NCBI GenBank assembly: GCA_964187785.1
Contig: OZ076409.1
Coordinates: 78,618,001 to 78,682,000 of the forward strand
Reading direction: 5' to 3'
Source: Amphiscolops sp. MND2022
Taxonomy: Eukaryota
DNA length: 64,000 nucleotides
A program made the translations under genes and the position numbers. The notes under the pieces were generated by a model. That model was given only the letters and a program-made list of their open reading frames with translations. It had not been told where the DNA came from and made no database searches. Every line of letters begins with the position of its first letter. The stretch's first letter is position 1. Positions 13,375-54,061 of the stretch are shown in pieces.

Positions 13375-14102
13375 TGTAACGGCAAGCTCTGGTACAGCAA
13401 TATCAACCGACATGTTTAGAAATTTTGTCAAAAATTCGTTCAAATTTGACGTGGCACTCAAACATGCTCAAGACGAAGTACCTGCCAGAAAAAGCACCCC
13501 AAAAAAGCAGAAATCGCCGCTCGCGACAAACAAGCACCGGAGACGACTAAAAGACGTCCCCAACACATACAGAACACGGTATTGTGTCCATCTCTAGGAG
13601 ATATCCGTTACTACAGTAGAGAAAACCAGTGTTCCAGATGTTCGCCTGAGTGTTCCTGCGGTATCCTGTGTGGCAACTAGCGCTAGCGCTGGGAAGCTGA
13701 GGTCAATTTCCATCAAATGACTCTGAACTCTTGATTTCTTGTTGTATTTTTCGATGTGATAAATTAATGTGCTCGAGAGCTGTTATCTAACATCTGTTTA
13801 TCCAATTTGGCGATTTTATCAGATTCTCCAATACTACGGTTCAACCTTCAACGATTTTCAGCCCGATTTTTAAAGGCTAGTTGAGCAGTGGTCTTGAGTC
13901 ATGCAAGATGCCTGTTACTTTTAGCAGTTACAGACTAGGACCAGGCCAGAGAGTATCCTACAAGACGGTTCCCCCACCTTGGGACTGGCTCCTTCGGAGG
14001 GAAAATGAGCTAGGGCCGCGGAGATCTAGGTCCCAGATTATATTCGCTGTTCTAGTTCCTCCACTCTAAGTTGCGGTTCAAGCGCCAGCGCTTATCGTTA
14101 CA
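13375..14102 (+). repeat. 5' LTR of element D
   Basis: Direct repeat of 31330-32057; 7-bp terminal inverted repeat. Confidence 0.95.
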
Positions 14103-14117: not shown

Positions 14118-14134
14118 TGGCGACCACAGAGGGA
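14118..14134 (+). promoter_or_regulatory. Primer binding site of element D, tRNA-Arg-like (TGGCGACCACAGAGGGA)
   Basis: Resembles the complement of the eukaryotic tRNA-Arg 3' end (TGGCGACCACGAAGGGA); 15 nt downstream of the LTR. Confidence 0.7.
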
Positions 14135-16643
14135 TCGTCTTGGGAAACTTTCCCTAGCGGTTTTTAAAAGATCTGGCCCCCTGGTGATCAGCGCCAAGCC
14201 CGTTTTCGACTCTGGACAAGAGGGAGAAGCAGAGTTTTACCTTTTTTTAGTCGTATTACGTCTTACTGGAACTGGGAGAGGCGTTGAACCAGAGAAAGTG
14301 CCGAAGAAATCGTGTTTTCAGGTGTGAAAATGGTATTTTTGGGCATTTTAGAAGGAAATCGCTCTTTATGTGTGATGTGTTGTGTACCCATCAGCGGGTA
14401 CCTTTTTGCAGGTGCAGAGGACCGTAGCACGTGGCTACGGGTGTCTAACAGGTTTTTTGAGCTATTTTCAGCCATTTTATGCCATGCAAGAGGGTAACGG
14501 ATGGAAGGTCGACCATACTCCAGCGAGGCGAAGGAGGGGACAAATCTCGTGTTGCCTACTTCCTATTCCCATTTCTCGTGGAGACGTCCTAGAGGCATGG
14601 TTTTTGGTGGACAGCAAGTGCAACGACAGACGGTGCTAATGGTCCCACCCGCGTGTTTCTGTCTGGTCTAGATGTGGAGAAATAACGTGGTGAAGATACA
14701 CCCTCTTATGACCAGATGTGTCGCTCAGATGGAGTATGGTTGGCGAAAATTTTGAAAATACACCTCTTTCGATGGAGAATCGTTGGTGCAGGTCAGTAAC
14801 GTTCTACCATAAATGTAACGACACCCTACGAAGTGCTTTTCTGTGAAAAAGATAGCACTTGGAGAAAAAAACCTCATTTTTGCGTTTTTTTGGTGTTTTT
14901 CTTGGTTTCGAGCACTAGTGCTCAAAGAAGCCAGGAAAGCTTGGTAGAAAGTTTTGAAAAAGCAGCTGCAAGGCTCGAGAAAGCCGGCACGAGGCACGAA
15001 AGGCGAAGTTGAAGCCTTTGATTGTGATAAAAGTGCCAATTTGGCGCCGAAAAATGTGGAAAAAGTGGAAATTTGGCCAAAAAGGCACCTAAAATGTGAA
15101 CGTACACAAGTATGGAAGTGCAAAATAGCAGTGTACGGCATTGCTTCAAGTGTAGTTGACCTTCAGGATTTTAACTGCAACTTTTGTAGCGGACTCAGGC
15201 AGCCTGGGGCTGACACAGTGCGAAAAACTTGTGATTTTTGGCATTTTCGAGCAGAGAAAGTGCATTATCCGAAAGCATCCAGAGCAAAGCTTATTCGAAG
15301 AGAGCGGGCTTGAGCGCTCTCATTTTCGATTTTAGCAGCAAAAACAACGCGTGGTGGTGAAAACTGCGTGTGAAAATTCCCATTCAGTGCCGAGAAAAGT
15401 GGAAAAACGCACTGAATTTGATCAATCTTCCACAAAACCGGACCGTCTCTGAACTAGGGTCGGGTCATAGATTCCTGAAACCTAGCCAAAAGGTGGTTGC
15501 ATTTTCGTAATCACCACTAAATCTAACGTTAGTGCTGAAAATTTGGTGAGCGTAACGGTCACCAAAGTCGAGAAAAGCTCTCTGACGTTTCGACTTCAGA
15601 AAAGCATAAAAAGACCGAAAAAATCCAAAACTGCGGGATTGTCAGTGCCTTATACCTAACGGGCACAACCAATCGAGGGTTTATCCCAGTGCTACGGATA
15701 GTGGGGCAACACGTTGGTCCCATTTTGCCCGCCGTATCACTTTCTGAGGTGATCCTCTTGGTCAATTTGTGAAAAAAGTTGTCAAAAACAGCGTTTTTTC
15801 GTGTACAACGTATATAGTGGGTCGAAACCTCAAATAAGCGCTCGCGCTTCAATTCGACCAATTCAGTGGCATTGTAGGTGCCCACTGGCATAGGCTATCA
15901 AGTTTGGTGCCGATCTGTGTGATACTTGTCGAGAGAATAGAAAAAACGTGGAGCCCAAAAAGGCGTGCAAAAAGGCAGTTTTTTCTTAATTTTTCCAAGT
16001 AACCCGGGCACCTTGGCTGAAGGGTGGGGCTATATTGCAGCCCACCATTGTAACTTGTGCTAGTTCCTACGTTGCTGCAGAGAATTTGAGCTTGCTAGCT
16101 TTTTCCAGTGGACCGCAATCTTGAAAAAGACGTAAAAAACAGTCTATTTCGGTACATAGTGGTACCGCACGTCTGTACCTAGGTGAAACTGTGGAAAAGG
16201 GGCGCAGCTCAAAACTGTGTTCATTTTCGTAAACCTACGTGTACCTAAGATCTGCTGGTCAATTTTGGGCTTGATACAGCGCTTCCAGCGCACACACGAG
16301 CCTCTTGAGTGTTGTTGTGCGATTTTTGGAAAATCCAAAAATTCTCTGAAATTCTTCCTGTGAGTGACCGGAGACTCTTTGCCCTAAACCAGGTTGATTT
16401 TCTGACCCAGTGTGCTTGTGGGAAAGCGCTGTGCAAATTTGAACAGCCTACGAGCTCTAGAACGTGTTTCGGAAAATCTTGGACATTGAGCAACATTAAT
16501 TTTCTTAAGTGCTCATCGAGACGACCAAGGGATCAGCCTCGAATTGAAGACCCTGGTGCGTTCGGCGACCTGATTTGAGTCTTCCGAGTAATCGTGAGCG
16601 GTAACTCGATCGCTATTAATAAAACGCATTGGCCACCGAACTG

Positions 16644-19625
16644 ATGGCGGTGCCCCATACATGTTCACAATCGTGGGTCACGATGGATGGTTCGCGGTTT
16701 TCAGACGACATGTCTGATGAAGTCACTATCGAACAACAGCGAAAGGAGGAGTTGGCCGCTATGGTTCCTCCCTCCGAGAACTCAAGTGTTTCCGAGAATT
16801 CGCGTCGAACCGAGCAGTGGGTCGACGAAACCTGCCGCGATAGAACCAATGAAGTGGAGGAGGGCTGGCCCAATTCGAACGCAACCAATGAATTTGTGGC
16901 TGAGGAAGGGTGCTCGCGCGCACCCCCAGCTGAAGAGGCACAACCCGGCTCACAGACCGACATGGAGCAGGATCTCACTTATGTGGGAGGCATGGGTTAC
17001 GCGAGACCGCGAGGACTCGGGACCACTCGAGGACCTATTCGGGTCTGTGCCTACGGAAAGCACAAGAAGGTGCGACCACCCATGCTGAATGCAGGCGAAC
17101 CTCGTCAAGAGGCGTCCCGCGTTAGGAGTATGACAGGTTCATTGGCCTCGTCGCAACGGTCTTCGGTGTACAAGGCAGCGTTATTGGATGCCCAATATGA
17201 AACCCAACGGGCTTTAGCAGGTCTGGCCAGCACTCGTGCTGAGTGCAATGAGCAACATCTTGCCATCGTCGAAAGTATTAAAGTGATGCAGACGTCAATG
17301 CGTGAGGGCCTGCAAGTCAGTGATCAATTGCGTACCGCGCAGAACGTGCAAAATGCTCGAGTGGACACCTTGGGTCACCGGATGGGAGAGATGAATGACA
17401 TGTTGATGGCTCGCGAGTTGCGCGTGGAAACGCAGATCAACGACTTAAGCAATCAGATGCACACAGTACTCAATGCCATTGATGTCATGAGGCGCGAGAG
17501 GTCACTCCCGCGGCAGCCCAGTGCAAGTGGAGGTGTGCGGAATGGAGGTCCAGTCCGTGTCTCGGAGCCGACGTACCCGAGCCAAGTAGTGAAACCAGAA
17601 CTGCCAAGTGCGTTGAAGCCTAGCACTTCCAGGCCGGCGGTACCTGCTACTCGGAAAGATGAAGAAGTAGCCGGAAATTTGGTGATAGCCACGCCTGATG
17701 CAGAGCGCAAGCCTGCACGAGTGCAGATGAGAGGACATCACGACTCAGCAGAGTCATCAATACCCTCTGCAGCCCAGAGCACTACTCGTGATCAAGGCGT
17801 GGATCCGATGTCAACAATCTACCTTGATTCTTCGGTTGAAGTCGACTTACTCAACACTAAGGCAACCCTAGGTTCTCAAACCGAGGGAGCAACGTTTGCA
17901 ACAGCCCCTATTTCGATGTCAGGACCAGACTCCTTATACTTGACCGCAGACTTGTCAGCCGATCATGGACTGCCCTCGGGCACTCCCTGTGCTAGCAGCA
18001 CTCGCAAGAAGGACGAAATCGCTGACCTGTCAATAAAAGCCACTCTTGGTAGTCATGACAGGACGCGTGAGGGGGAGACTAAGGTCGAAGAAGGAGAAGC
18101 CATATCCCCTGAGCAGCTGAGATTCACGGCCGCCATGTCAAAGGCAATGTCAAAAGAGTTAGCGCCTTTGCTCGCCAGTAGAGACTTGGCTCAGGCGAGA
18201 CCCAATGTGTATCGCGGCTCCAAAGACGCATCTCTTGATGGGTGGATCCTTATTATGCAGAGATACTTGAAGAGAACGCAAACCAAGGTCTCGGCCGAGG
18301 ACCAGGCCTGGAGCATCATTGGTCACCTTGAAGGTGAAGCTCGCAACTACATCATTAACAAAGCGGAATCCGAACGTGACACCCCCGAGAAGGTGTGTGA
18401 ATTGTTATCTAGCCGCTTTGGCGCTGGAGGAAATCGTATGCAAGTACGACAAGCCTTCCAGAGCCGCATTCAACATGAGAAAGAAGACTGGATGCAGTAT
18501 TTAGACGCTCTAGAGTGTCTTAGAAGTCAAGGATTCCCGCAAGAGGCAATCACTACCAAGCGCTACGAAATCCTCCAGCGCTTCATGGAGGGCGTGCGAG
18601 ACCCAGCGTTGAGGCGGGAACTTGCTATAGTGTATGCCTCGGAAGTCTTCCTGACCGAACCACATACGGTGGAATCCCTTCGCTTCACCACCCGCCAATT
18701 GCAGCGCAATCGTCCCAAACCCAACCAATTCCCTCAACCCTATGACCCCAGACTAGCAATGAGGTCTAGACCTCATCCCTTCGCGCCACTACCCCCCAAC
18801 AAAATGGTGTTACCTCAAGGAGTAATGCCTCCCCCACCTGCGAGCAATGCCCCGCCAAATCAGGCAGCAGCGCAGCCTGCGGCACGCCTACCCGTTGGCG
18901 CATGCTTCAATTGTGGTCAAGCTGGGCATTTTGCCCGGGACTGTCCCACCCGCGACCAAGCTCGCAAACCAGTGGCAGCCCCCGAGCCGGAAGGCGTGAA
19001 AGTCACTGCTGAAGACGTGACTGATGGCGTGTTGGAGAATTATCCAGGCATTCATCAGTGTGCGCACTGTGGAGTCTATGACCACGTGGATGTCCCCTGC
19101 GGTGAGCATTCTCAAGTTCCAAGGCCTAATGATGAATTGGCCTACAATCGATGGGCCGAGGTGGAATCCGCTGGTGTTGCCGCCCACACCGTACCCCTGG
19201 AGGATGATTGTGTGTTAATGCTGCACCCGGCAGAACCTCCAGCGTTTCATACCCCACTGATAGTTACATGCGGAGCAAAGCAGATCCAAACGTGCTTGGA
19301 GCCTACCACGTTCGATCCACAGGGGCGAACGTTGATCTCGATTCATCTGATGCTGGCAGCCGAGCAGGTGCGTAGACCAACGCTAACCTTGGCGAAACTC
19401 TGGGTTGAGCTATCTATCCTCTATAAACGGATGGAGTTGCCCCGCCCAAAGCAGTGGTACGTCCCTGGAGAGTCAGAGACCCTGACTACGTACTCTCCGG
19501 TACCAGTCTGTGCAACGATGGACGGCGTGGACGTGAAGTTCGAGGCTTGCGTGGTGGTAGATGTATTCCCACCCGGCTTATGCTTGGGACCTCAAGAGCT
19601 GAAATGCTATAATATCAATCACTAA
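16644..19625 (+). CDS. gag: Gag of element D (coiled coil, capsid-like domain, CCHC knuckle) plus a C-terminal protease-like segment
   Basis: CFNCGQAGHFARDC knuckle; first ATG at 16644 in the 998-codon ORF; in frame with pol across a TAA. Confidence 0.88.
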   Translation: MAVPHTCSQSWVTMDGSRFSDDMSDEVTIEQQRKEELAAMVPPSENSSVSENSRRTEQWVDETCRDRTNEVEEGWPNSNATNEFVAEEGCSRAPPAEEAQPGSQTDMEQDLTYVGGMGYARPRGLGTTRGPIRVCAYGKHKKVRPPMLNAGEPRQEASRVRSMTGSLASSQRSSVYKAALLDAQYETQRALAGLASTRAECNEQHLAIVESIKVMQTSMREGLQVSDQLRTAQNVQNARVDTLGHRMGEMNDMLMARELRVETQINDLSNQMHTVLNAIDVMRRERSLPRQPSASGGVRNGGPVRVSEPTYPSQVVKPELPSALKPSTSRPAVPATRKDEEVAGNLVIATPDAERKPARVQMRGHHDSAESSIPSAAQSTTRDQGVDPMSTIYLDSSVEVDLLNTKATLGSQTEGATFATAPISMSGPDSLYLTADLSADHGLPSGTPCASSTRKKDEIADLSIKATLGSHDRTREGETKVEEGEAISPEQLRFTAAMSKAMSKELAPLLASRDLAQARPNVYRGSKDASLDGWILIMQRYLKRTQTKVSAEDQAWSIIGHLEGEARNYIINKAESERDTPEKVCELLSSRFGAGGNRMQVRQAFQSRIQHEKEDWMQYLDALECLRSQGFPQEAITTKRYEILQRFMEGVRDPALRRELAIVYASEVFLTEPHTVESLRFTTRQLQRNRPKPNQFPQPYDPRLAMRSRPHPFAPLPPNKMVLPQGVMPPPPASNAPPNQAAAQPAARLPVGACFNCGQAGHFARDCPTRDQARKPVAAPEPEGVKVTAEDVTDGVLENYPGIHQCAHCGVYDHVDVPCGEHSQVPRPNDELAYNRWAEVESAGVAAHTVPLEDDCVLMLHPAEPPAFHTPLIVTCGAKQIQTCLEPTTFDPQGRTLISIHLMLAAEQVRRPTLTLAKLWVELSILYKRMELPRPKQWYVPGESETLTTYSPVPVCATMDGVDVKFEACVVVDVFPPGLCLGPQELKCYNINH

Positions 19626-22182
19626 GATCCCACCGGAGAAGCGCGGATAGATGAGCGTGCGTCGCTTGTTGTCTCCTTTGTGGTGCCCCATGCGGCACCT
19701 ATCCCACTGCGAGGCTTGGTGGATACTGGTTCCGGGGTGTCCATATTAACCTTCTCCGCCTTTAATCGGGTAGCTGCACGGACCGGTGCGGTCCTGAAAC
19801 CCTATCAAATTGATTTGTACGCTGCCAATGGGAAGACAAAAAAGACTTTCGGGTTAGCTGAGCAGGTTCGCTTCCAGTTGGGAGGGTATGAACTCGAAAC
19901 CAATTTTGTCGTGGTAGATGACGCAATGGGTGTGGAGGACTTTCTGCTGGGTCGAAACTTCCTCCGTTCCTACCAAGTCCTGGTAGACCTAACCTCCATG
20001 AAGATAGTGGTGCGAGCACCAGTGAAACCCGTCTGGCATCATGCACACACCCAGGTAGGTGACGCTTCGCTAACTACTCCCATTGCTCTGGACAGTGACC
20101 TGGTCCTACAGCCTTTCGAGCGTACAGTGGCAAAGGCTAAACTTGTCACCGACGCGCTTGAACCACTAATTTTCCAGACCGTGGCGCTTAACGCCTCGTT
20201 GTCTGATCTCTCATTGCAAAATACCATCTTTTTAGAGGACAGCCTGGCCACTGTCAGTGAGACAGGAACATTGTACGTGAGTCTGATAAACCTCACCAGC
20301 AACCAGCAGCGTGTACGATGTGGTGCTCACCTGGGCACGGTAGTGCCTGTGTCTTTAGTATACCAGGCTGTGCCCCAAAATCTGGATGCTACTACAAAAA
20401 CTGACCATAAAACTGAAGCCGACAACAGTCGAGCAAATTTTGTTTATAAAGTGTACAGTGAAATGAATCTATCCACTGCTTCTGAGTTGACTTCTTCATC
20501 TGAATTTGAGTTTTTGTCTTCGACGGATCCAAGTGAAGCGGGGCTTTCGGAGCGCGAGATTCGTAAGCGCACCGATCCGGACCTATTGGCCCCGATCCCT
20601 GGGCCCGATTCTCAATTGCAAGAGGTTAAGAAACTCTGGGGCGCTAGCGCCTGCGAGTCCTTGGACAACATTCTTAACGAGTTCGATGACCTATTTATGA
20701 AGCGTAAGGCGGATATTGGCCGCTGTACCATTGCTAAACATACGATAGAGGTAGAGCCTGGGGCTGTACCGCACCGTAAAGGTGCTCGCAGAATGTCCTC
20801 CGAAAAGGCTGAACGAGCCAACCAGGAGGTTCGAAGCCTACTGGCCTTAGGGATGATACAACCCTCACTGTCCCCTTGGGCAAGTGGTATCGTAATGGTA
20901 AAAAAAGCGGGGAGTTGCGTTTTTGCTGTGACTTCCGACCGCTAAACGAAGTAACCATTAAGGATGCCTACCCCCTGCCCCGCATCGACGAAAGCCTGGC
21001 GCGACTTGGCAATGCAAAGATCTACACTAGCATAGATCTTGCCTGGGCCTTCTGGCAAATTCCTTTGCGAAAGGCGGACCGCCACAAGACAGCTTTTGCC
21101 TGTGAGTTGGGACTCTTCGAATGGCGGAGAATGCCATTCGGCTTGTGCAATGCATCGGCCACCTTCCAGCGAGCAATAGCGCGAGCGCTACAAAAATAGT
21201 TAATCGCAAAGGCAGCATGGTCATGGCATACATTGACGACATAGTCATAGCAACGGAGACTGTGGAAGATCACATGGCGCGTTTGCGCGAAGTCTTTGAA
21301 TGCCTCCGCGAGGCTGGCTTCAAGATGCGCGTAGCCAAATGCGATTTCATGAAATCAGAAATCAAATATCTGGGACGCGTGGTCTCTGCAGAAGGTGTCA
21401 AGCTGGACCCGAAGGCTGTTGCCAAATTGCGCGACTGGGACATCCCTCGCAACAAGACAGAGATGCAAAGTTTTTTGGGATTCGCTAATTATTATCGTGA
21501 ATTTATCCCATGGCATACCAAGCTGGCAGCGCCGCCGCTGGTTACTGGACTGAATGCCACGTTTGCATGGGGCCCTGAACAACAAAAGGCCTTCAACGAG
21601 ATCAAGAAGGGATTGATCGAGGCGACTGCGCTCGCGCAGCCCGATTCCGAAGGAGAGTTTGTGCTGGACACCGATGCCAGCGCTGTTGCCATTTCCGGTA
21701 TTCTACACCAGTGGCAAGGAGCTCCAGGAGAGCGACGCCTGCGACCGATCATATACGGTAGCAAGAAACTAACCACCACCCAAGCCAAATATGGGGCAAC
21801 CAAGCTAGAAATGTTTGCAGCCTATTACTTCATCCTGAAAAACCACAGCTACCTTTGCCCCCGAAAGTTCACCCTGAGAGTCGATAATCAAGCCCTATCC
21901 TGGTTGAAAACCTACTCTACAGACCAAGCATTGATTGGACGTTGGATCATGACACTGGACAAGTATCACTTTCGTGTGGAACACAGACCGCGAACGCAAC
22001 ACCGCAATGCTGATGGCTTGAGCAAACGAACCAACGACTATCGATGCCGAGAAAAGCAGCTTGCGCAGCTGCCAGCCACAGGAGAGCGTTGGAAATTCTT
22101 CTCGGTCGAGGAATTCGACAACCTCCCCGTAGCCCCCTGGTTCGACCTGCAAGGTCGAATAATTCCAAATCATCCTGACTGA
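19626..22182 (+). pseudogene. pol: Pol of element D: aspartic protease, dUTPase-like spacer domain, reverse transcriptase and RNase H (frameshifts near 20905 and 21195)
   Basis: LVDTGSG, FLLGRNFL, LRFCCDFRPLN, DAYPLPRID, MPFGLCNA, AYIDDIVI, LDTDAS, HRNADGLS. Confidence 0.93.
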
Positions 22183-24590
22183 CCAGCACATCTGCAGAAT
22201 TTGGAGCCTAAGGCTCCCGACCAAACACTTCGCGTGCTTCGCCGTGCGCAACGAGCGAATAAGCGAGAACGACAGGCAAAGGCGCTAGCCGCACCTCTAC
22301 CGCCCAAGCCTCCACCCGTGCTGCAAAAGCATGAGGACTTCTACCCAGACTATCCAGAAGACTGGAAAGACGTCACCACCGAGGCGAGCGAGGATTACCT
22401 GCTGCCAACGCATGCAGTAAATGTCCCCTCTCGTACTATCTATTCTGTGGCGGGAACGAATAACGCCACGTTACAGATTTTTCCTTGTGGAGTGCGCGAG
22501 TCAATCATGGCCCTCAAGGACATTGACACGGAGCTCCATGAACACACTCATACCGTACATGGAATCAAGGATTTGGTCCTATCCCAAAACCGTGACGTCC
22601 ATGTGCTGGCACTGAAAAAGCTCGTGCAGTGTGAATCCCTAGATAACGATGTGTTTCCCGAGAACGTGCGTGAATTCGCACGTAACTATTTTCGCCAGAA
22701 AAAGGACCTCTTGTTCATAAACAAGAACGATGTCCTTTGCGTGCAATACTCACCCTCCCAACGCCCATTGCACGATTGTCCGTGCATGATTATTATGCCT
22801 CAACTATACCAGCATGAAATCCTGTTCTGTGCGCACGACGCCATGGGACACCAAGGCATCTCAAAAGTGGTAGCTCGAATTCAAGAGCGCCACACCTGGC
22901 CCGGCATCCGGCGCAGTGTCGGTCGATACGTCGGCCAGTGCCTCACCTGCCAACAAGTACGTGACAAACCTGGTGACGTACGATTTCAACTGAAAAACAT
23001 CCAGAGTGGCTATTTTACCGAGCTGGTCCAGTATGACCACTTAAAAATCTGCCCCTCTGATAATAACAACACCGGCATTCTGGTCATCATAGACCACTTT
23101 TCCAAATTTGCAGAGGCAGTCCCTTGTAGTCACCACGACTATGACGCAGTGACCACCTCACGATTGCTGCTGCAGAAATGGTTTGCCCGCCATGGCACTC
23201 CCACTCGCATGCAATCAGACAATGCTCCAAACCTTACTGCTGAAGTCTCCAATGAGTTCTTGAAGGCAGCTCACGTCACCAAAGTGACCTCCACCGCCGG
23301 ACATCCACGAACTCAAGTTTTGGTGGAACGACAAAACCGCACCCTTTTAACCTTGTTACGAGTCTTTTGCTCGCGCCGTATGCGCGACTGGGACCAGTGC
23401 TTAGATGAAGTGATTGGGGCCTATAATTCTACCAGGCACGCCACTACTGGCTTCTCGCCCTACATGTTGACTAGAGGTGTTGAGAAAGCAATCCCCCTCA
23501 CCTTTTTGCACCCTGAATTTGCAGCCAAGTCCTTTGATACGCATGAAGCGTATGTGGATCATGTGTTGGCTCGCCAACAAGAAATTCACGACTTGGTCCG
23601 GCGCAATACGCACCAGGCCCAGCTACGCCAAAAATTGAAGTATGATCGTGCTATTCGGGCACGGGCCTACCAGCCAGGAGAGCTTGTCTGGGTTTTTTGC
23701 CGCTATGTGCCGAACTGATGCGTGCCTGGCGTGGCCCGCACAAAGTAGTACAGGTCTTCCAAGAAGGACGTGTCTACGTGTTGGACACAGGCCAAAAGGA
23801 TCATTTTGAGCGCCTGAAACCTCATCACAGTGGGCCCCTTGAGCTCGCCGCCGCGCAAGCGGACAGCGGCGAAATAGTGGTGCTCATGGACCCTGACCCT
23901 GAACGTTCCATCGATGTGGTTGATGATGATAAGTCTCAGCCTTCATATAAAACTGAACAATTGTTTTCAGAAGCATCTGACGTATCCTTGCCTTCGCGCA
24001 AGCACCATTGGATGGATACCCGCCTACGCACAAAGTTGCGTGCTGGGGGTTCCCGCATGCACTACCAGCAGTTCGACTACTCGACCTCGGGCACTGACGA
24101 TGAGTTATCCGAAATCATGTTGCCGGTACCTCTTGATCCCGTTGATGCTGATCGTAGGGAACCCGAAGTCCCCCACTCCCCTGCAGATCAATCGATATCA
24201 CCTACCCATCGTCTACCTCAACTATTCTCAGACAATGAGCGTGCGCGCTCTCCGTCACCACAAATATCTTCTCCCGAAAAACAGTCCTCCTTATTGGGAA
24301 CGTCAGCCCCATTATTGACAAATCCATCACTCACGAGTTTCCTCAATAACTATCCCATTTGGCCGGCCGCTCCTTCACTCCCTCTGAAGTCCGCCACCGA
24401 GGATGACGACGTTCAGTCCAATGTGCCTACTCTTCCCACGACATTGCCCGGTGCGGGGACCGCTCCTTCTCTCAAAAGGGGGAGGGGGAGACCACCCAAA
24501 ACGCAAAAACTGTTGGTCAGAGCGAAGGCAAGAACAAGGAAGAAGGAAATAACAACAACAATGCCATCAGAAACAGCAATGCCGACCTAG
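22183..24590 (+). pseudogene. Integrase of element D and low-complexity C-terminal tail (frameshift near 23710)
   Basis: HDAMGHQG...CLTC zinc finger; YDHL / SDNA / VERQNR DDE triad; WRGPHKVV. Confidence 0.92.
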
Positions 24591-25977
24591 GCTTCTGAAG
24601 TCCCTCGATACCAGTTGAGAAGCAGGCGGCAGCCACGCTACAAATGCGGGACCTGTGGGCTGCGAGACTGTGTCTGCTTGCTAGCCGTCAATGAGAACCG
24701 GAGGGTTCCCACTGGAGCCCGGGGAGTTCCTCCGGAGCGGGGAGAAAATCTAGTGCATCGCCTTACAGTGAGAGCTGAAAAGACTTATTCCTCCCTGGAA
24801 CGATACGGAGACTATCCCGTGGATACTATTCTGGAGAAGTTATCATCACCTGGAGTAGCAAAAGCTCCATGTCCTCGATTCAAGGAGTGGACTAGCGACG
24901 GAAAAGGGTTAGAGTTTACCCTTGCCACGGTGATGCCCCCAGTACCCAGCAATATCGCGTTTGGACCATTCAACTTCGAGCGGGAACCTGTGCAAATGGT
25001 CCGATGCATCACCGCTGATCTTCTCGGTGACAAATACGGACTTCATGTAGACCCGGGCGGAGTATACAGCCCAGCACTGCACTGGTGGTTGCTGGTTACT
25101 GCTCCACGAGTGGAGGCAATAGTGGAACCACTGCACCTGCTGTCCTGCTTGGAAGGTCTGAGGACCCTCACTACTGCGGACTTGATACTTTGCTTCCACA
25201 TTATAGACTGGTATCGTGTCAAAGTGAAGTTCGCGTGGTGGTTGGAACTGATCATCACTTGTTTCACCAATTATCCTCGCATTAGATTGCTGGACGAGTA
25301 GACTCACACTTTCGAAATTCCGCTTTCCCAAAAGCCGCTTTAAGCACCCTGGACACCTGGGTCAAAGCGAGCAGTGAAAATCGAGCGATGCCACGCTCGG
25401 TGTGGCAAGACCTGGTGCAATCCAGGGGCGTACGCCCCGCGTATGCTTACCTGCCGGCAATGGGCCGGGGAGAGAATTTATCTACCCGGGAATTCTGTAT
25501 CCAGCCCCAACAGAGCACCTCTCATATGATGTGACTGATTTTCTACAAGTAGAAGGTGATATGGTGTTAGCGTGTCCCGCTGACCTAGAGACCAACTCAG
25601 CCGCCCTACGGTACGTGCTACGGGAGTGTGGCAAGGAGAATGTGTTCTCTCTACGTCCCAAGGTGGGAGAAATTCTCACCATTCCCTCTGATATCAACCC
25701 AAACCCCAATCAGAGTATTCACTTACTGATAATTAGAGCAAACCAGAGTGCGCCGCTGCTCACCGACGATTACCTACGTTGTATGACACACTTGATACAG
25801 CGTTTGATAGAGAAAGGATCCACGAGGGTCCACCTACCTATACTGGACCCAGAACGACCCGCCCTTTCATTGGTGAACCTGTACCACACCCTAACGAATT
25901 TGCTTGAGGGCACTGGCATTCACGTGGTGCTACACAACCGCGTGTACGTGTCCATTCTGAGCATAGGGCCGGAATAG
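24591..25977 (+). pseudogene. Pol C-terminal extension of element D with two TARG1/OARD1-like macrodomains (interrupted by stops and frameshifts)
   Basis: In frame with the integrase tail across a TAG. Both ~130-aa units align by eye with the OARD1 pattern (AHCISxD, KxGEVxxL, IYYLITK, LxxxLxxM, LxMPxI, VFxxTDIxITV). Confidence 0.6.
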
Positions 25978-26264
25978 CCTGCCCAAAGCTCTTTTCTGTT
26001 GCCCCCTACTTAATTTTTCCACCCCGGTAATTGTCATGTCTGGGAGGAAGTCTTAAACTATCCCATGGAATGATTAACTTGTAATGTATCGTTAAATAAC
26101 TCCTATCTTTATGTTCTAGTTAGTTAGTTGAACTACAATTTACACTTGTTGCGGTTCCCTTATCGAGCCATCTTTGCACCATTGTAACTGGATGATGAGC
26201 CCTAAGCTCTCCCCATAATGCACCTAGTAAGCCTAACGGTAATCCTTTTTAGACCTATGATATA

Positions 26265-29200
26265 ATGGCTTATTACCCCAACAGCACGGTGCCTATCCCC
26301 ACGACGGGACCTCATAGCAATAGGTCTCAAGAATTGCCTGCGCGAGCGCTGAGGACTAATCAAGTCCAATATGTAGAAGAGCGATTGAGGAACGGCCTTT
26401 CACCGTTAGCGGTAGCGGGCGTGGCCGCCCTGCTCACTCAACTAGACACGACGCAGACGCTGCCAGGTGTATCTGTGTCTCTGGTGACGGAAGTAGCTGG
26501 CTACCGTCGCACGCTAACCTGTCAGAACAATGCTTGGGATGGCCACGACTTGACGCATCAATTCCTAGATGAACGATCTACCACAATGCTTGGCCCCAAC
26601 CAGGGCACGAGGTTCGAGCAAGAAGCTTCCCTGTGTATGGTGCCTGCCAACGTTGCAACAATGCCACCACCTCAGATGGTCGCATTGCCTCCACCAGCAC
26701 CAAAAACAGTACCAATGACGCCAACCTACTCCGGTTCGCCTGCCTTTGGGACGTCGTACCAAGCGCCACACATGGTATCGCAAACCACAACTAGTGCACC
26801 AGTCTCTGATCGGTAGCCCTCGGGGTCCTGGTTGCCACCCATACCAAACCCAGAGCTGACTGGAAGGAGTACCAGCGAACAGGCCGTAATTGTGGCATTA
26901 CAAGCAGTGGCCAACTATCCGAACTCCTCCGATTTTGTCCGTGCCGTAGAGCAAAGAATCCCTGGACTAGCCACTTATCTGCAAGCTGCCGTTCAGCCCT
27001 CGGGCTGTGATCCTCCTGCTCCTCTAGTCGAGACAGCATCTATGGATGTAGAAATTGCTGCTGGACCAAGCAATAGCGCAAGCGCTGCTACTGGCGCACG
27101 AGAAGAAGCCGGGAGAAAGCGACTCACCGAAGAAACTGCCTCAATCACCCCAGCTGGCTCAGTAACCGAGAGCCCGACTAGTCGTCCCCCTCCCGACAAA
27201 CGCGCTGATGTACCTCGACCCCAGCTGAAAAGTGTAGTCATCCCTAGGCCTCCATACCGAGTGGGTCATCTAGGCCGAGGCACGCCTCAGATGTCTCTAG
27301 CGGACGCAATCGAGCAGTATGGAGATCCGGATGCAGGCTCGGAAGTGAGCTCTGTGTCCTCGGGCACGAATCCAATAGATATGTCCCTGGAGATACCTGA
27401 GACGGTAGAGGAGGCCCGCCCTCCAGCCTTCCTCCCTCCCTCTGATGACGTATCTGGATCAGTAGTCACAAATGATAGCAAACGCATTTGGATGGCCGCT
27501 GAGCACCTTTACCCTAGTCAATGTGCTATAAAGAAGAGGACCCCTCCCACTGAGACGGAGCAAAAGGAAATTAATCGAACCACAATTCCGGCGCAGGTCA
27601 CGCGTTCGCTGCGTCCCCGTGACGCAGACATGTCAGAGCAGGCTTGGGAACAGCGTGCTCGAGAGCAGCTGCCCACGACGACTAACGATTACATGGCACC
27701 CCTGCAGCATAACATCACCGAGCAGTTCCCCGCACGGTACGTGTTGCAAGAAGGTGAGACCTGGGAAGCGAACGCCCGCTACGCCCGTAACTTGAGATCT
27801 CTGAAGCCCCTATTGAAAGCAGCTTTGCAGCGCGCGCGCTACTGCATGGCAGTCGATTCTACCTGCCGGAGTGATCTGCCTATTGACAACTTGATGCCCG
27901 ACGTGCTGGTACTGACTATGCCCCTGTCTCGCTTCGCTGAGATCGCTGAGATGGTTGGAGCCATATACGACCCAAACCTAAGAGGATCACAGAAAGAGCC
28001 GCCTCCACAGCGCGTGATCTTTGCCAACCTTCTGGATCACATGGCTTGCAAAGGGTTGCTGCGTGATCTAGACGCCATAATGTCCGATGTCCGACGACCT
28101 GGAGACATTGCAGCCTTAGTAAATGAGGTTGTCGGTGCAATGGAACGTGCCGCAGGGATCCTTCGGGGTCGTTTGGGAGCGCTTGCGCTCTTTGTATCCC
28201 CACCAGGATTTATGTACTGGCCACGAAGCCTGCAGCAGTTTGTTTACATTCTGCTGGAGGTCTGCAAGGCGCGCAGAGCCGAATTCGCTATCTGTGCACC
28301 AAACCTGCGTGTAGACCGAGAGGACCTGCGCCCAGATGCCTTATCGTATCCAGCCTTCTTTGCCGCTGTATCTAGAGCGCTCGTTGCTATAGAACGCTCG
28401 GGAAATGCCCAGTTAACCATTGACGACGCTATCTACTATGATCATGGAATGCGAATGGGCAGAATGGCCTTCGACCTCGACGGCAACCGCATCTCCCGAG
28501 AGTCAAACGTGACCAAACGAGAGGCTGTTCGTCGTTACAATTGGCTGGTGCGAAAGGACAAAGAAATCCCAGTGCGTGCAGAGCTAGCCGAGCTGACAAA
28601 ACAAATCGGTGCATGGCCTGCAGCGCGCACCGTTGAGAGGACAATTCCACAGATCCACTTCGCCTCAGGAATCGAGCCCGTGAAGCTGTCCGTAGGACTG
28701 CGGTGCATCGTGGCAATTGAAGCAACCAACCTGAAGGCCGAGGTCGACGCCGCAGCTAGCACTTATGCCTATTGGTACCAAACTAGGTTTGCCGCCAGGA
28801 TTCTAGCAGAAGTAGCTCGAGAGCTCAACTGTCCGTTGGAAGCCTTCTGCACCAGTCTTGGTCTGGGATGGAACCTTGAAGTGATAACTTCCGAGTTTTC
28901 GCTTACCCCCACGCAAACAGACAAGCTACTAGAAACCATTGGAGAGGCCACTGTCGGAGAAATACTAGCGCTCGCGCAAGCGATGGGTCCAACGAAGTTT
29001 GTAGCCGGACCACTAGCACTATTAGTCGACATCGTGATTGCCTGCGACCTCACCGTATTCTACAGTTACTTGGTCCTAGCACAAGGACAACTGCGCAGCC
29101 TGACCCGTTGGGGACATTTAATGACCTCAAAGGACCAACAAGATTATTCCGCCCAGTTGGAGCGCATGCGTGCGTCGATCCAGCATTGGCTGTATTCCAT

Positions 29201-30572
29201 CTTGGTGTTTGCCTCCGGTCTATTCGTGGGTGTGGACCAGTCCCAGCCACTACACAACTCAGACCAGCAAATCCCACGAGAAACGGCAGGATTCCCCTTG
29301 CCGCAGCAGATCGCTGATCTCACCCTAGCTGAGGTAGAGGATTTCGTGGCAGCCATGGCTCCCGTCCTGGCCCCCATCTTTGGCGCAGTGGGCGTGTGCC
29401 GATACCCTACCAAGCCTTTAGCAACAGCAGTCCAAGAACACATGGTCTCATTTAGCACTTATCTGCGAGGCCGTCCCTCACTGGCATATCCAAGAGTAAT
29501 ACATGCCGTGCTGAGTGGTGAAGTGCCGCATGGATATACGACCCTGAAGTCTGAAAGGGAGCTGGAGGATAACCTGATGGGTTTGTTGCGCGCGCGCACC
29601 AGGAAAGCATGCCCTCTGCCTCGAGAACATGGCCCTGTGAATTGGTACTCCGCACCTCTCAGTTTGGAAGGAGTCCCCTTCAGATTCCCGTGGAGTCAGG
29701 AATTCATAAGGAAGGCGATCCGCGCCAGCACTAGTGCTGGTCCACCTGTAGACCCCTTATACTGTTTTAAATGCATCGCCTTCCCAAACCGCTATTGAAA
29801 GGAACCGTTGGGTTGGCCAAGGGCGAAACCCGTTGGACGCGCCCCTGGGATTTTCAACCGTCAAATCCAGCACCTGGAACCAGCCCAGATACCAGGATGG
29901 ATTGAAGGCGCTGCTCAGATCAGACAACGAAATCTCCAATCCCGTGTTATCCCATTCCCCCGGAAGTCGGCGTGGAAGCCCCAAGGAAAGATGACCATGT
30001 CTGGAGATATGTCCATCGTCCAACATGATGAGATCAATTCTGTGTTGGGCTCGACAGAACGAGCAAGATGGGAGGAGTATTGTCTGGAGTTGGAGATTGC
30101 TAGCTTCCCTAAATGGAAGAGAGCTTGCGAGCTCTGGAGCCAACCTGGGTGGATCTCACGCAGAGTTGCATTAGCCGTGGAAGGCAGAGCGGAAATAGCG
30201 AGACAACAGTCGTTCGCGCCTAACATGCTCGCGCCAACGATGGCGATGTCTTTGGATCGGCCCATCTCTCAACCGATCACCATTAACCTTCCAACCCACA
30301 ACTTGGAGCCAGAACCAGTTGGCCCGTCATCGTCACGAACTAGTCCTCAGTCCTCGCAGCAGCAGTCAGGATAGCACGCAGCTGAGTTGACTCCCAATGC
30401 AGCGCTAGTGCAGCCCATTGCCGAGTTATCGCTCCCCGAAGATCTGTCGGACTCTGAAACGGTTGCCACAGAAGTCTCTCCCCGACGTCGAGCGTCAGTG
30501 TCGACTGATAATGCAGAACAGACCCCCGATGATACCACCAAAGAGCGGACCCGACGCAGTTCGGCTCAATGA
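26265..30572 (+). pseudogene. Extra ORF of element D (~1435 codons, three in-frame stops) with a degenerate SGNH/GDSL-fold domain
   Basis: ORFs at 26265, 26832, 29808 and 30387 share one frame, each separated by a single stop. SGNH-like blocks AVDS, VLTMP, RVIFANLLDH and DLRP. Confidence 0.7.
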
Positions 30573-31309: not shown

Positions 31310-31329
31310 GCCAGGAGCCTGGGGAGTGA
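31310..31329 (+). promoter_or_regulatory. Polypurine-tract-like sequence of element D
   Basis: ccaggagcctGGGGAGTGA directly precedes the 3' LTR. Confidence 0.65.
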
Positions 31330-32057
31330 TGTAACGGCAAGCTCTGGTACAGCAATATCCACCGACATGTTTAGAAATTTTGTCAAAAATTCGTTCAAAT
31401 TTGACGTGGCACCCAAACATGCTCAAGACGAAGTACCTGCCAGAAAAAGCACCCCAAAAAAGCAGAAATTGCCGCTCGCGACAAACAAGCACCGGAGACG
31501 ACTAAAAGACGTCCCCAACACATACAGAACACGGTATTGTGTCCATCTCTAGGAGATATCCGTTACTACAGTAGAGAAAACCAGTGTTCCAGATGTTCGC
31601 CTGAGTGTTCCTGCGGTATCCTGTGTGGCAACTAGCGCTAGCGCTGGGAAGCTGAGGTCAATTTCCATCAAATGACTCTGAACTCTTGATTTCTTGTTGT
31701 ATTTTTCGATGTGATAAATTAATGTGCTCGAGAGCTGTTATCTAACATCTGTTTATCCAATTTGGCGATTTTATCAGATTCTCCAATACTACGGTTCAAC
31801 CTTCACCGATTTTCAGCCCGATTTTTAAAGGCTAGTTGAGCAGTGGTATTGAGTCATGCAAGATGCCTGTTACTTTTAGCAGTTACAGACTAGGACCAGG
31901 CCAGAGAGTATCCTACAAGACGGTTCCCCCAACTTGGGACTGGCTCCTTCGGAGGGAAAATGAGCTAGGGCCGCGGAGATCTAGGTCCCAGATTATATTC
32001 GCTGTTCTAGTTCCTCCACTCTAAGTTGCGGTTCAAGCGCCAGCGCTTATCGTTACA
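31330..32057 (+). repeat. 3' LTR of element D
   Basis: Direct repeat of 13375-14102. Confidence 0.95.
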
Positions 32058-45625: not shown

Positions 45626-48600
45626 AGAAAATTAAATTCGGTTCAGGAATTAGCCCTGAACTGTTCTGCTTTTCCTCTTTTATTTTCTTTTGTATCAGTC
45701 CCATACAGCAGTATCTTTTGAATAAATAATGGGACGTATGAAAGATCCCTCACAAAGGAAATAACCCGGGATCAAGAAATCAAAAGAAGGAAATGTATAT
45801 AAATAAGGCAACAAATGAAACAGAAAATGAACAAAGTTTACAGTCTTGGTGTACACATATACATATGTACAATTAGTCTTTAGTAACGCTAGACTGAGGA
45901 GATACAGTAGCAGAAGAAGCAGAGGACCGAGACGCCCTACGTTCCATCTTCCTTCGTTTCTTACTACTAGGGGCCTTTACAGCAGGATCATCAGCGACAG
46001 AACCAGCATCCCCGGAGTCAATTTGGACAGAGATTCTCTCTGGAGTAGATGACGCAATGCGGCAGGAAGCCAACAAGGACTTGTAAATTTTTGAGCGCCC
46101 AAAGGTGTCAACATATGTCCAGGGGTCATATTCTTCAGCAAAAGCGGAACGTCCAAAGGAAGAAGATAGAAGGGAAAAGCTAGCCAAGTTGTCATCATTA
46201 CTACAGAAAGGCACGGAATCACGGACATTGGCAAGATAACTTTGGCAAGGGAGAATGACATCGGTGAAGCGATTCTGACGACCCGCAGTGGTAACTGTGC
46301 CAAACGTAACGTCAGGAAGTGCTAAACTCACAGAGGTTGCACATAGACAGCACAGCTTGAATAAGTGGAACAAGTGCGCCCGGTCCTGCAAGAACTCAAG
46401 TCCAACCAGGAACTCTATCAGATCTGAGGAGGTACTAGTCAGATCGAAATTGGGGCCATAACTAGTCCGTAAGTGGTCCAGTAGCTGCATGTACTGGTCC
46501 CGGCACAGAGACTCATTGGCACTTGGGACCCAAGAACGGAGGGCAAAGGTGTTATACAGCATGTCAAAATGCTTCAGAGCAACGTCCATCGGCCTTTTAA
46601 ACATGATGAATGGGTCGAAAGCAGCCAACCCCTTTGCTATGTTGCTTGTCGTCCCAACTCGTTTGAGGACCTCATTGATGAGGAACTGCACATACTGCTG
46701 GCTGTCCTTGACGAAGGCTGTTTTTACCGTCCCTGCGGTGGCCTGTATGGCTGGACGCTCAGACTTCTTTCCAAAGTGGATGCCCCCTGCTCGAGCCCTG
46801 CTAGCTGTCCCTACGCGATTAGACAATTTGAGCCTGACCAGGTAATCATCTTCAGCCAGGAATGTCCCTTCACTGGTCTGGAATCGGAGGAGCAAGAACC
46901 AGGCACTCTCTAAGGGAACTGTATCTGGAGTGTAGACCCGGGAACAGAGCAGGCTGACGAATCGACTGACTTCCCCACAGAGATAGAATGAGGCGTCACG
47001 CCTATACTGCAGATTCACAGCGAAACTAGTGACATCTAGAAACACAAAATAATGCCCAAATACGAAATGTAACCTTACACAACCTCCCCGTCGAAATATA
47101 CTCACAGTCACTGACGAGCTTGCGGAAGAATTCCAGTTTGACGACAAAGAATTCGTCACAAATCAAGGACCATTCGAAGCTCTGCACCTGGAATGAAAGA
47201 TCACCCTTACTACGGCGCATAAAGTCTGAAGGACAAACAAGGACTAGGGAAACCCCTTATGAATAAGCCTGTCTAACTGGAATAATACGTATGAATCAAC
47301 AGAAAGCTAACCCTGTTGCGAGATCCTTGGCCTTCCTGCAGGGGAGCGTGTGCCGTCAGATAGCGTAGCACTGACTTCCACTCATCTAACAATGCATGGC
47401 AAAGAGTGGGCAAGGTCTTGACCTCGAGCTGACAAGTGGTGATAGCCTGTAAACCCACATGGCCAGATGAACTTTGAATATTAGATCCTGAGACTCGCTA
47501 CCCCCATCTCTTTCACCAATTAGAACCACAAAAGAAAGGAAATGTGCCATTGGATTACTTACCCTAATGAGTTCCGGATGACGCATCACCCAATCTTCGA
47601 CAAGGGAACCACCCAGACTGACCATCAGGGCTTGCAACACCGAGAAGAAGTCTATGTGCCCAAACACGGAGTAGCTCGTCTTATGCATGAGTCTTGCCAG
47701 CGAAAGGTGCTCAAAACGGAAACAACTCTGGACTCCTTGGGTGAAGTACTCTGACTGGTCGATCGTTTTGGCGAATTCAACTGGGCACCCTGAGCATGCG
47801 ACCATATCGGGCCGTGTGGAAACTGCTGACAGGAATCGAGCTAGTGACCCCAGTTCCCCAGTCACATCAGTCGCGGGAAGAGAACTTCGGCAGACGTAGA
47901 CCCTACAGAGCTCTAGCTGCTTCCAGTATTTGACTGACATGCATTGGTTGGAACCAATCGTCTGGAATTCGACTGAGAAGCACTGTTGAGTGGACACTTG
48001 CTCAGCGATGTCGTGTAGTGCACAGATGAAGAAGTGCTGGAATATGACCTGAAACGGAACCTAAACCTCAGTACAGGGTAAAGTTCGGAAGAAACATTGA
48101 GGCTTAAAAGACACTACTTACAGTGAGGCGTTCTTCCCCCCAATCGAAATCAGTCACTGTGGCTTGATGGTTGGTGAATGACCCCATCCGTGACCATAAG
48201 TTTCTCAATACCATCATGTCTCCTTGGGTTTTCGCAAAGTCTCCCACGAGACAGAGTTGAGTTTTGGCTCTGGATTCTGCTGTGACCAGTGCTGTGGTGG
48301 AGCCCTTGATGTAGTCATCATAAAAGGGGAACCGTTCCCCGATGTCCACCAGTTCTTCATTGATGAAATGAGGGAGTGCCTTTGCCAGCTCCATTTTACT
48401 CAAGATCTTCCCATTGGCTCCTCGGACTCTATGTTGCACCTTACCCGTGACAGGATCCGTGCTTCGCAGTGCTCATACCGCCAACGCTGGTCGCGGCGTA
48501 AATGCCGTTGGGTGCGATGATGTCTAAGGATTTCATACGGGCCTTTCGATCTGATAGAAAAGTTCTTTTTACAAATGTGGCACCAGACCATCAAAGGATT

Positions 48601-48911: not shown

Positions 48912-49830
48912 TGTAACGGCTGCTTGCCCTTATCCTGCGCTGAGGCTTGACAAGCTTTACGCCGCCCTGATCCGTTGCTTAGTGCTGTGGACCGTCACTA
49001 AACAATTCCTGGTTTCTTATTTTAAAGGACTGTATCTTTTGACTGGTGGGTCCGATGTGACCCGTGGAATCTCCTGCGATTCCTCTGTTCACTGAATTGG
49101 ATCCGATGTGATCCTGCACACACTTCCCTCACTGTATCTTCACGCGCTCCGGCTCTCCAACTATGAGAGTAGCTACTTAGTCGCTCTAACTCTAGCGAAA
49201 AGTTGTGAAGATTGAGAAGTTGATTATTAAGTCTTGCGGTCCTGAGACCCAACTTGACTATAGCTATTCAGTGGAGAAAATCTCTATCTAATAATAGTAT
49301 ACATATCGTTTACAATTCTACAGTAAATATAAGCAAATATCAGTTAAAATATGTTGTATAAATAAATGACATTTAAGTGAATTATTAAAGTTATTGGCTA
49401 TGTAAACAAAGCACATGGTGGTTTTGGCATGTTGGTTAGGTGGGTTAGAAAGTATGTTTACACTATGTAAACATTATCAATTCAACAGAGTTACATTCTA
49501 ATGTGGTCATATAGGTAAATAACAAAGTTTACATTTTTGGTTCAATGACCTTGAATACTACACATGTGAGGGGTAAAGGGGGTTATAATGGGGGAATGAA
49601 CTTGAAACTTAGCCGGTGTGTTCGTGTTAGGTATCTGCGTATGTGTGCCAAGTTTCAAGTCTCTACGGTTATTAGTTGCAGAGAAAACCCTGACTGGGGG
49701 GGTTTTTCGATTTTGTGACGATTGACTTCTCTTCAAATTTTCATCTAAGTTTTTAGGAGTTTAAGTTCTCGTATCTCAACCAACATGTTCTGAATCGAGT
49801 TTCTCTGCCTTCTGATGACTGGCGCCAACA
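48912..49830 (-). repeat. 3' LTR of element C
   Basis: Direct repeat of 54062-54980. Confidence 0.95.
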
Positions 49831-53853: not shown

Positions 53854-53944
53854 GGTCCAAGCTCTCAGAGCTAGACACTTGCTCTTCTAGGGCAATCTTC
53901 TTCAGTTGTCCACCAACGAGTCGTCTTCGTCCTCGTCTTCTTCT

Positions 53945-54059: not shown

Positions 54060-54061
54060 AA

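What the first reader, a model, noticed from the sequence alone, without database searches (positions are those of the whole stretch)
26265..30572. Huge non-Env extra ORF with a degenerate SGNH-fold domain in the env position
Seen: one ~1435-codon frame with no obvious signal peptide or furin/TM organisation. A Pro/Ser-rich N-terminus is followed at ~27840-28390 by YCMAVDS / VLVLTMP..FAEIAEMV / PQRVIFANLLDH / LALFVSPP / DLRPDALSY, matching SGNH blocks I, II, III and V with the catalytic His replaced by Arg. About 600 aa of unassigned helical sequence follows. Known: SGNH esterase domains occur in ORF1 of some non-LTR elements, and the inactive SGNH-like OSK domain of Oskar binds RNA. Inference: an undescribed accessory protein (RNP, lipid or germ-granule targeting). 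With the macrodomains and pseudo-protease, this defines an unusual complex Gypsy lineage.
Basis: partly seen in the sequence, partly recalled or inferred. Interest (0 to 1): 0.78.

Follow-up and report, generated by a model that had tools for sequence, protein, structure and literature searches.

The report
Giant pseudo-esterase gene in Gypsy retrotransposon
A large family of virus-like jumping genes carries, where an envelope gene would sit, a giant extra gene kept by strong selection, whose middle likely derives from a fat-splitting enzyme that lost most catalytic residues and would serve as a binding module; the copy here is broken.

Summary
The ORF is real. It runs 1,435 codons (26265-30572) inside an 18.7-kb Gypsy LTR element, after one long gag-pol frame. 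The three internal stops were absent from the 17-19 sister copies covering them. Five subfamilies in this genome (36-94% identity) keep the gene; dN/dS between subfamilies is 0.03-0.09. It has no signal peptide, conserved furin site or Env match.

The SGNH call is likely (about 0.7) but not proven. Motif order and spacing fit, and an SGNH profile scores best on blocks I-II (24.6 against at most 18.2 in 51 control windows). Two AlphaFold models left strand 1 unfolded and gave no match with Z>=8; TIM-barrel fragments tied with or beat SGNH hits. His, the oxyanion Gly/Asn and the acid are lost, but Ser532 and His592 are invariant, so 'dead' is inferred.

New here: a conserved splice-acceptor-like site just before the start codon, and conserved RKR...PPxDK and C-terminal RxRxxS motifs, suggesting a spliced, intracellular, kinase-regulated protein. 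Esterase ORF3s are known from rotifer Vesta elements. This scan reported the same family on other DNA before. Verdict: new variant of a known kind.

The parts
13375..14102 (+). 5' LTR (TG...CA, 728 bp)
   Evidence: 99.2% identical to the 3' LTR over 729 columns; ends read; flanks CTTT/TTTT give an imperfect 4-bp target duplication
14118..14134 (+). Primer-binding-site-like stretch (starts TGG, 15 nt after the LTR)
   Evidence: sequence; tRNA identity not tested
16623..25977 (+). gag-pol, broken in this copy: CCHC knuckle, protease, RT, RNase H, integrase, long tail
   Evidence: Pfam hits; one 3,193-codon frame in two relatives
25480..25977 (+). Macrodomain-like end of pol (lead only)
   Evidence: ESM Atlas row PF01661 at score 0.90, recognition 2831; no Pfam or PDB sequence hit
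26233..26252 (+). Branch-point-like CTAAC and TTTTTAG splice-acceptor-like site, 12 nt before the start codon
   Evidence: TTTYAG 4-14 nt before the ATG in 5 of 5 subfamilies, shuffle chance 0.010-0.016 each; 23 of 29 family-C loci; splicing itself not shown
26265..30572 (+). ORF2, 1,435 codons, accessory protein; stops at 26814-26816, 29796-29798 and 30372-30374 in this copy
   Evidence: dN/dS 0.03-0.09 between subfamilies
26322..26639 (+). Conserved N-terminal segment (aa 20-125), unassigned
   Evidence: 39-75% identity across subfamilies; dN/dS 0.04-0.14
27114..27203 (+). RKR...PPxDK basic motif pair in the Pro/Ser-rich region (nuclear-localisation-like; label recalled)
   Evidence: RKR in 12 of 12 and PPxDK in 10 of 12 full-length copies, plus family-C protein P0063
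27837..28394 (+). Likely SGNH-derived alpha/beta domain (aa 525-710): D531-S532 kept, block II G to L, block III N to L/M/F, invariant H592, block V H to R689
   Evidence: fold searches inconclusive
28395..28559 (+). Highly conserved extension after the domain (GNAQLT...YNW)
   Evidence: alignment; low confidence in both models
28560..29564 (+). Mostly helical region (aa 766-1100), unassigned, with two hydrophobic stretches
   Evidence: model helices with pLDDT about 50-85 for aa 815-975; no Pfam or PDB hit; hydropathy
29565..30194 (+). Basic conserved C-terminal region (aa 1101-1310, pI 9.8), unassigned
   Evidence: dN 0.07-0.11 between subfamilies; folded only to aa 1177, at pLDDT below 50
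30486..30569 (+). Disordered tail with RRxS and terminal RxRxxS motifs (kinase/14-3-3-type; label recalled)
   Evidence: RxRxxS in the last 12 aa of 12 of 12 full-length copies and 7 of 7 family-C ends found among 8 loci examined; shuffle chance 0.002-0.009
31313..31329 (+). Purine-rich tract before the 3' LTR
   Evidence: sequence
31330..32057 (+). 3' LTR

Best explanation
This is the second gene of an 18.7-kb Gypsy LTR retrotransposon, a 1,435-codon non-envelope accessory gene under strong purifying selection, likely made from a spliced RNA, whose middle domain is likely a disarmed SGNH esterase that would act as a binding module guiding the element's RNA-protein particle inside the cell. 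Shown: the element's anatomy, the gene's fixed place after gag-pol, its conservation in five subfamilies and this copy's private stops (about 0.97). Inferred: SGNH ancestry (about 0.7); loss of standard catalysis if it is SGNH (about 0.8); expression by splicing (about 0.75). Most likely job (about 0.4): an intracellular, kinase-regulated adaptor that binds the long unspliced genomic RNA or its particle and moves it (nuclear export as with Cer1 CERV, or delivery to germ-line granules as with Oskar), with the dead pocket and the basic C-terminal region as binding surfaces.
For: Anatomy. ORF2 follows the pol tail in 29 of 30 family-C loci and in the A, B, D1 and D2 stretches examined. Selection: dN/dS 0.079-0.086 (A-B) and 0.033-0.035 (D1-D2); 0.055-0.057 in the putative SGNH part. 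SGNH: hhalign places D531-S532 on the GDS motif, score 20.7 against a maximum of 18.3 in 100 block shuffles, and 23.7-24.6 against a maximum of 18.2 in 51 real control windows. The model gives beta-alpha repeats on blocks II-IV with pLDDT 62-94. SGNH proteins fill 22 of 50 VIA rows (6 by title, the rest by recall or cited papers), many aligned over nearly the whole target, including OSK 5a4a at Z 5.6. The highest-probability viral row is a GDSL lipase (probability 0.82, E 0.14). Intracellular and regulated: no signal peptide; conserved basic and RxRxxS motifs. Precedents: CERV is made from a spliced mRNA and exports genomic RNA under phosphorylation control (PMC10309623, abstract); OSK binds RNA without catalytic residues (PMC5785220, passage).
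Against: No fold search reached E<=0.001 or Z>=8. In the domain-only model strand 1 with the serine is unfolded (pLDDT below 35), TIM-barrel fragments lead (Z 7.5) and SGNH rows are 11 of 50 at Z 5.1-5.7. With a shallower SGNH profile hhalign was at chance (15.1 against a shuffle maximum of 19.7), the global mode found nothing, and only 33-35 columns align. Ser-to-block-V spacing is 157, slightly outside the 130-152 of 24 true SGNH rows. Ser532 and His592 are invariant, which a pure binding module need not keep. No RNA evidence was obtained, and no spliced DNA copy was found. The motifs were noticed after looking at alignments and subfamilies are related, so the shuffle figures are not independent tests. 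In vivo work questions the simple 'OSK recruits mRNA' model (bioRxiv 2025.05.02.651258, abstract). Nothing tests RNA binding directly.
Confidence: 0.4

Rival explanations
1. Membrane or lipid targeting: the SGNH-like domain binds acidic phospholipids or an acyl chain and, with the hydrophobic helices, brings particles to membranes or vesicles, a functional stand-in for Env.
For: The ZfL2-1 ORF1 esterase binds liposomes even with active-site mutations (PMC3905857, passages). The gene sits in the env position. Hydrophobic stretches at aa 913-931 and 1027-1045. The domain is mildly basic (pI 8.9).
Against: No signal peptide or conserved furin site. The strongest hydrophobic stretch is proline-broken. 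Nuclear-localisation-like and kinase-like motifs are conserved.
Confidence: 0.2
2. A rewired active enzyme: Ser532 is still a nucleophile, using the invariant His592 or Arg689 in a non-standard site (hydrolase or acyltransferase).
For: S532 in 36 of 36 rows, D531 36 of 36, H592 38 of 38, R689 37 of 38.
Against: The block II Gly, block III Asn and block V acid and His positions are all replaced. Asp-Ser of block I also has a structural role (Asx motif; PMC10792757, passages).
Confidence: 0.13
3. Counter-defence factor: a large scaffold that blocks host silencing or ADP-ribosylation-based restriction, working with the macrodomain-like pol tail.
For: Very large family (3,135 first-look candidates); macrodomain lead on the adjacent pol tail; ORF2 changes faster than the pol enzymes (dN about 0.10 against 0.035-0.041 for A-B).
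Against: No region shows dN/dS above 1 between subfamilies; no host partner identified; the macrodomain is unconfirmed.
Confidence: 0.14
4. The domain is not SGNH-derived but another alpha/beta fold, and the motif match is coincidental; the protein is an accessory factor of wholly unknown ancestry.
For: No Pfam, NCBIfam, PHROG or PDB sequence hit to SGNH; TIM and enolase fragments top the structure lists.
Against: The best SGNH-profile score across 55 windows falls on the predicted blocks I-II; motif order and spacing fit; shallow one-genome alignments often misfold.
Confidence: 0.12
5. A diverged Env, or neutral captured DNA.
For: Env position and an env-like splice acceptor; young sister copies show dN/dS 0.43-0.84 on few changes.
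Against: No Env hit in Pfam, PDB or viral structures; no signal peptide; dN/dS below 0.1 between subfamilies. Near-neutral values among young copies are expected after insertion.
Confidence: 0.01

Closest known systems
GDSL/SGNH ORF3 of bdelloid rotifer Vesta LTR retrotransposons (PMC5408684, passages read)
   Same: Separate non-Env ORF between pol and the 3' LTR, with an SGNH-type domain.
   Different: Vesta ORF3s keep the invariant catalytic residues and are about 1.3 kb. Here the gene is 4.3 kb, multi-domain, and His, Gly, Asn and the acid are replaced. No sequence link was found. Inactive GDSL derivatives in that paper are in Athena-L elements, not LTR elements.
ORF1 esterase of CR1/L2/RTEX non-LTR elements, ZfL2-1 (PMC3905857, passages read)
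   Same: SGNH domain inside a retroelement accessory protein; non-catalytic lipid binding shown there.
   Different: Active enzyme, upstream ORF1 position, non-LTR class; it did not bind oligo-A RNA.
Oskar OSK domain (PMC5785220 passage; PMC10792757 passages; PDB 5a4a)
   Same: SGNH-like fold without a full catalytic set; VIA Z 5.6, rmsd 3.9, 131 aligned, tied with other rows.
   Different: Host gene; lacks the serine, which this family keeps. The PF17182 search of this genome listed other SGNH families among its 15 fetched loci, none of them ORF2.
CERV of C. elegans Cer1 (PMC10309623, abstract read)
   Same: LTR-element accessory protein from a spliced mRNA, phosphorylation-controlled; a functional model only.
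   Different: No homology tested or claimed; export activity not tested here.
Giant Gypsy elements Burro and Ogre (PMC6431247, passages read)
   Same: Large Gypsy elements with extra domains or ORFs.
   Different: Burro fuses cargo and Env into one polyprotein; no esterase is mentioned for either in the passages seen.

Membership tests
Ty3/Gypsy LTR retrotransposon | Two LTRs with TG...CA ends | tested here: met
Ty3/Gypsy LTR retrotransposon | Domain order PR-RT-RNase H-integrase | tested here: met
   Pfam
Ty3/Gypsy LTR retrotransposon | Placement in a named clade by RT tree | not tested
   no named RT references were fetched
Env glycoprotein | N-terminal signal peptide | tested here: not met
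   hydropathy of the first 35 aa negative in 7 of 7 proteins; no dedicated predictor available
Env glycoprotein | Internal furin site, fusion peptide and C-terminal membrane anchor | tested here: not met
   Rx[KR]R only within the last 10 aa in subfamilies A and B, none in D; the C-terminus is hydrophilic
Env glycoprotein | Homology to viral fusion proteins | tested here: inconclusive
   none listed; low-confidence model
SGNH hydrolase-like fold | Five-stranded alpha/beta sheet matching SGNH structures | tested here: inconclusive
   four strands modelled, strand 1 unfolded; Z 5.1-6.5, tied with or below TIM fragments
SGNH hydrolase-like fold | Blocks I, II, III, V in order and spacing | tested here: inconclusive
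   blocks I-II align above all controls; blocks III and V placed by eye; spacings 58/99/157 against ranges 43-54/84-100/130-152
Active SGNH hydrolase | Block I serine | tested here: met
   S532 in 36 of 36 rows
Active SGNH hydrolase | Block II Gly and block III Asn (oxyanion hole) | tested here: not met
   P-L at 553-554 and L/M/F at 590, on the inferred register
Active SGNH hydrolase | Block V DxxH acid and histidine | tested here: not met
   position 686 variable, R689 in 37 of 38 rows, on the inferred register
Oskar OSK family (PF17182) | Match to the family profile | tested here: not met
   no hit in 30 members at E<=1
Oskar OSK family (PF17182) | RNA binding | not testable with these tools
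   needs a binding assay

The most novel reading that the evidence does not exclude
A Gypsy lineage independently turned an SGNH esterase into an Oskar-like RNA-binding pseudoenzyme, built it into a 1,430-1,500-aa kinase-regulated scaffold made from a spliced RNA, and uses it in place of Env to route its genome through the nucleus or germ granules.
Probability: 0.2. Interest if true: 0.8.

Novelty: new variant of a known kind. Interest (0 to 1): 0.52.

Why it matters
Extra genes in the env position are usually filed as env or left unexplained. This one has been kept since synonymous sites between subfamilies nearly saturated, in a family with thousands of candidate copies, so it probably does something the element needs. 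If the SGNH call holds, it is a retroelement pseudo-esterase that parallels Oskar, and it offers a direct test of whether retroelement esterase domains matter as enzymes or as RNA or lipid binders, a question left open in PMC3905857 and PMC5408684. About 600 conserved residues after the domain have no assigned fold.

Tried and rejected
Pfam, NCBIfam, PHROGs and PDB sequence searches gave no meaningful hit for ORF2. A designed PPR protein matched through summed weak repeats (E 3.7e-6, no stretch passing alone) and was rejected. A weak tobacco mosaic virus coat hit near aa 1215-1290 (E about 0.5; 0.0008-0.003 only for a tandem-dimer construct) had no Pfam support and was treated as chance; that part was not folded. 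The ESM Atlas DUF6604 lead had recognition 697, far below the 2300 guide value, and was rejected. Foldseek found nothing at E<=0.001 for either model.

Relatives outside this lineage: none among 7,997 scored candidates in each of two searches, in phages or in metagenome contigs (72 pattern matches, none confirmed). The sensitive representative-library search never ran because the queue was full, so range in other species is untested.

Spliced DNA copies: 0 matches to a strict junction pattern; 4 matches to a looser one were collinear point variants that keep YAG. No RNA evidence was obtained. Pseudo-protease against protease and macro repeat 1 against 2 were at control level in hhalign.

Literature searches found no description of this element; Repbase, most subscription papers and all supplements were not seen.
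Full report
OBSERVATION. The frame from ATG 26265 to TGA 30572 has 1,435 codons with stops at codons 184, 1178 and 1370. [quoted passage not shown] That order makes it Ty3/Gypsy. In two relatives gag-pol is one 3,193-codon frame, so this is the second ORF. It starts 287 nt after the pol stop.

IS IT A GENE? Yes. Of 19 other close copies, 3 have a fully open frame, and none of the 19, 19 and 17 copies covering the three stops has a stop there. A protein search of the genome gave 3,135 first-look candidates, 150 scored. Homologues form subfamilies A (this copy), B (75-76% identity), C (45-52%) and D1/D2 (36-38%), all present in this genome. Pairwise dN/dS is 0.079-0.086 for three A-B pairs and 0.033-0.035 for two D1-D2 pairs, with dS near saturation; it is 0.21-0.29 within A and 0.43-0.84 between very young sisters, on 25-38 changes. 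ORF2 follows the pol tail in 29 of 30 family-C loci. Every hit in the two database searches came from one source type and this lineage; the range in other species is untested.

IS IT ENV? No. There is no signal peptide, no conserved internal furin site and no C-terminal anchor, and no Env match by sequence or fold. Two internal hydrophobic stretches (aa 913-931, 1027-1045) reach membrane-like values and keep a membrane role open.

IS THE MIDDLE DOMAIN SGNH? Likely, not proven. For: I built a profile from true SGNH sequences (39 rows). hhalign aligned D531-S532 with the GDS motif and carried the register into block II, scoring 20.7 against a maximum of 18.3 in 100 block shuffles and 16.2 reversed. 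Scanned over 55 windows of ORF2 and gag-pol alignments, the three best windows all gave aa 528-562 (23.7-24.6); the 51 control windows averaged 11.8, SD 2.6, maximum 18.2, with the four windows overlapping the domain left out of the controls. The domain model has four confident strands alternating with helices at blocks II-IV. In the search with the long model 22 of 50 rows were SGNH proteins (6 by title, the rest by recall or cited papers), Z 5.4-6.5.

Against: 15 rows in that list were enolase-family barrels, the best at Z 7.3. The domain-only model left strand 1 and block V at low confidence, its top match was a TIM-barrel domain (Z 7.5, rmsd 3.7, 143 aligned), and SGNH rows were 11 of 50 at Z 5.1-5.7. 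Foldseek had nothing at E<=0.001. A 10-row SGNH profile scored at chance, global alignment failed, and profile libraries were silent. I put SGNH ancestry at about 0.7.

ACTIVE SITE. On the inferred register, block II Gly, block III Asn and the block V acid and His are replaced (R689 in 37 of 38 rows), while D531, S532 (36 of 36 each) and H592 (38 of 38) are kept. By the block definitions in PMC10792757 (passages) this is not a standard hydrolase, but a rewired site is not excluded. Oskar differs in having lost the serine.

EXPRESSION AND REGULATION (inferred). All five subfamilies have TTTYAG 4-14 nt before the start codon (shuffle chance 0.010-0.016 each), with a branch-point-like yTAAy upstream in A, B and C. 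This resembles env-type splicing (own knowledge). No spliced DNA copy was found and no RNA evidence was obtained. In poorly alignable regions, RKR...PPxDK and a terminal RxRxxS are kept in all subfamilies. Reading them as nuclear-localisation and kinase/14-3-3 motifs is recalled knowledge, and the motifs were picked after viewing alignments.

MECHANISM. An element with an internal splice acceptor must still export a genomic RNA of about 18 kb. Cer1 does this with CERV, a spliced, phosphorylation-dependent accessory protein (PMC10309623, abstract). Oskar binds RNA through a catalytically incomplete SGNH-like domain (PMC5785220, passage), though in vivo work questions how much OSK contributes (bioRxiv 2025.05.02.651258, abstract). 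I therefore favour an intracellular adaptor for the element's RNA-protein particle (0.4), over membrane targeting like the ZfL2-1 esterase (0.2; PMC3905857, passages), counter-defence (0.14), a rewired enzyme (0.13) and a non-SGNH fold (0.12). No step of the binding model is shown.

THE REST. Aa 766-1310 is as conserved as the SGNH-like part (dN 0.07-0.12) but unassigned. The model is helical and moderately confident for aa 815-975 only and stops at aa 1177. A weak tobacco mosaic virus coat hit was judged chance. The pol-tail macrodomain has an Atlas lead only (negative), and the pseudo-protease was not supported by hhalign on shallow profiles.

COMPARISON AND NOVELTY. GDSL/SGNH ORF3s occur in rotifer Vesta LTR elements with intact catalytic residues, and inactive ones in Athena-L elements (PMC5408684, passages). 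Giant Gypsy elements with other cargo are reviewed in PMC6431247 (passages). PMC6338049 (passages) had nothing relevant. Seven full-text searches found no account of a 1,430-1,500-aa pseudo-esterase ORF in a Gypsy element; Repbase, subscription papers and supplements were not seen. This scan noted the same family on other DNA (e1-9076048, e1-9389583); those notes are not independent support. Verdict: a real, ancient, selected accessory gene; new variant of a known kind; interest 0.52.

Noticed in passing
window 26257-26267: A two-codon upstream frame whose stop overlaps the ORF2 start (TAATG) in subfamilies A and B; it may tune translation.
   Followed up: no
L010 and L018; G000:C1:2050381-2058226: Tandem duplications of the ORF2 region: L010 joins the end of one ORF2 to the start of the next, and three matches lie within 8 kb on C1.
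   Followed up: partly
L046-L049, L054-L055: Between D1 and D2, dS is about 0.8-1.35 in pol domains but 1.7-3.5 in the pol tail and ORF2; possible exchange of the 3' module, though values are near saturation.
   Followed up: no
window 37552-59691: A second Gypsy element (1,749-bp LTRs, 99.0% identical) with antisense ORFs at 45873-48060, interrupted by a nested element.
   Followed up: no
window 48912-54980: Nested element with 919-bp direct repeats (99.9%), a 998-codon minus-strand frame with no Pfam hit below E 0.28 and a 24-bp tandem array.
   Followed up: no
window 8655-10717: Satellite array with a 179-bp unit.
   Followed up: no
window 1-2632: Minus-strand fragment of an element 71-75% similar to the second Gypsy element's gag and protease region.
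   Followed up: no
L073-L117: The genome holds several other repeated SGNH families with S, G, N and DxxH intact; used here as the reference profile.
   Followed up: partly
window 16623-30572: This copy has seven in-frame stops and several frameshifts although its LTRs differ by only 0.8%.
   Followed up: no
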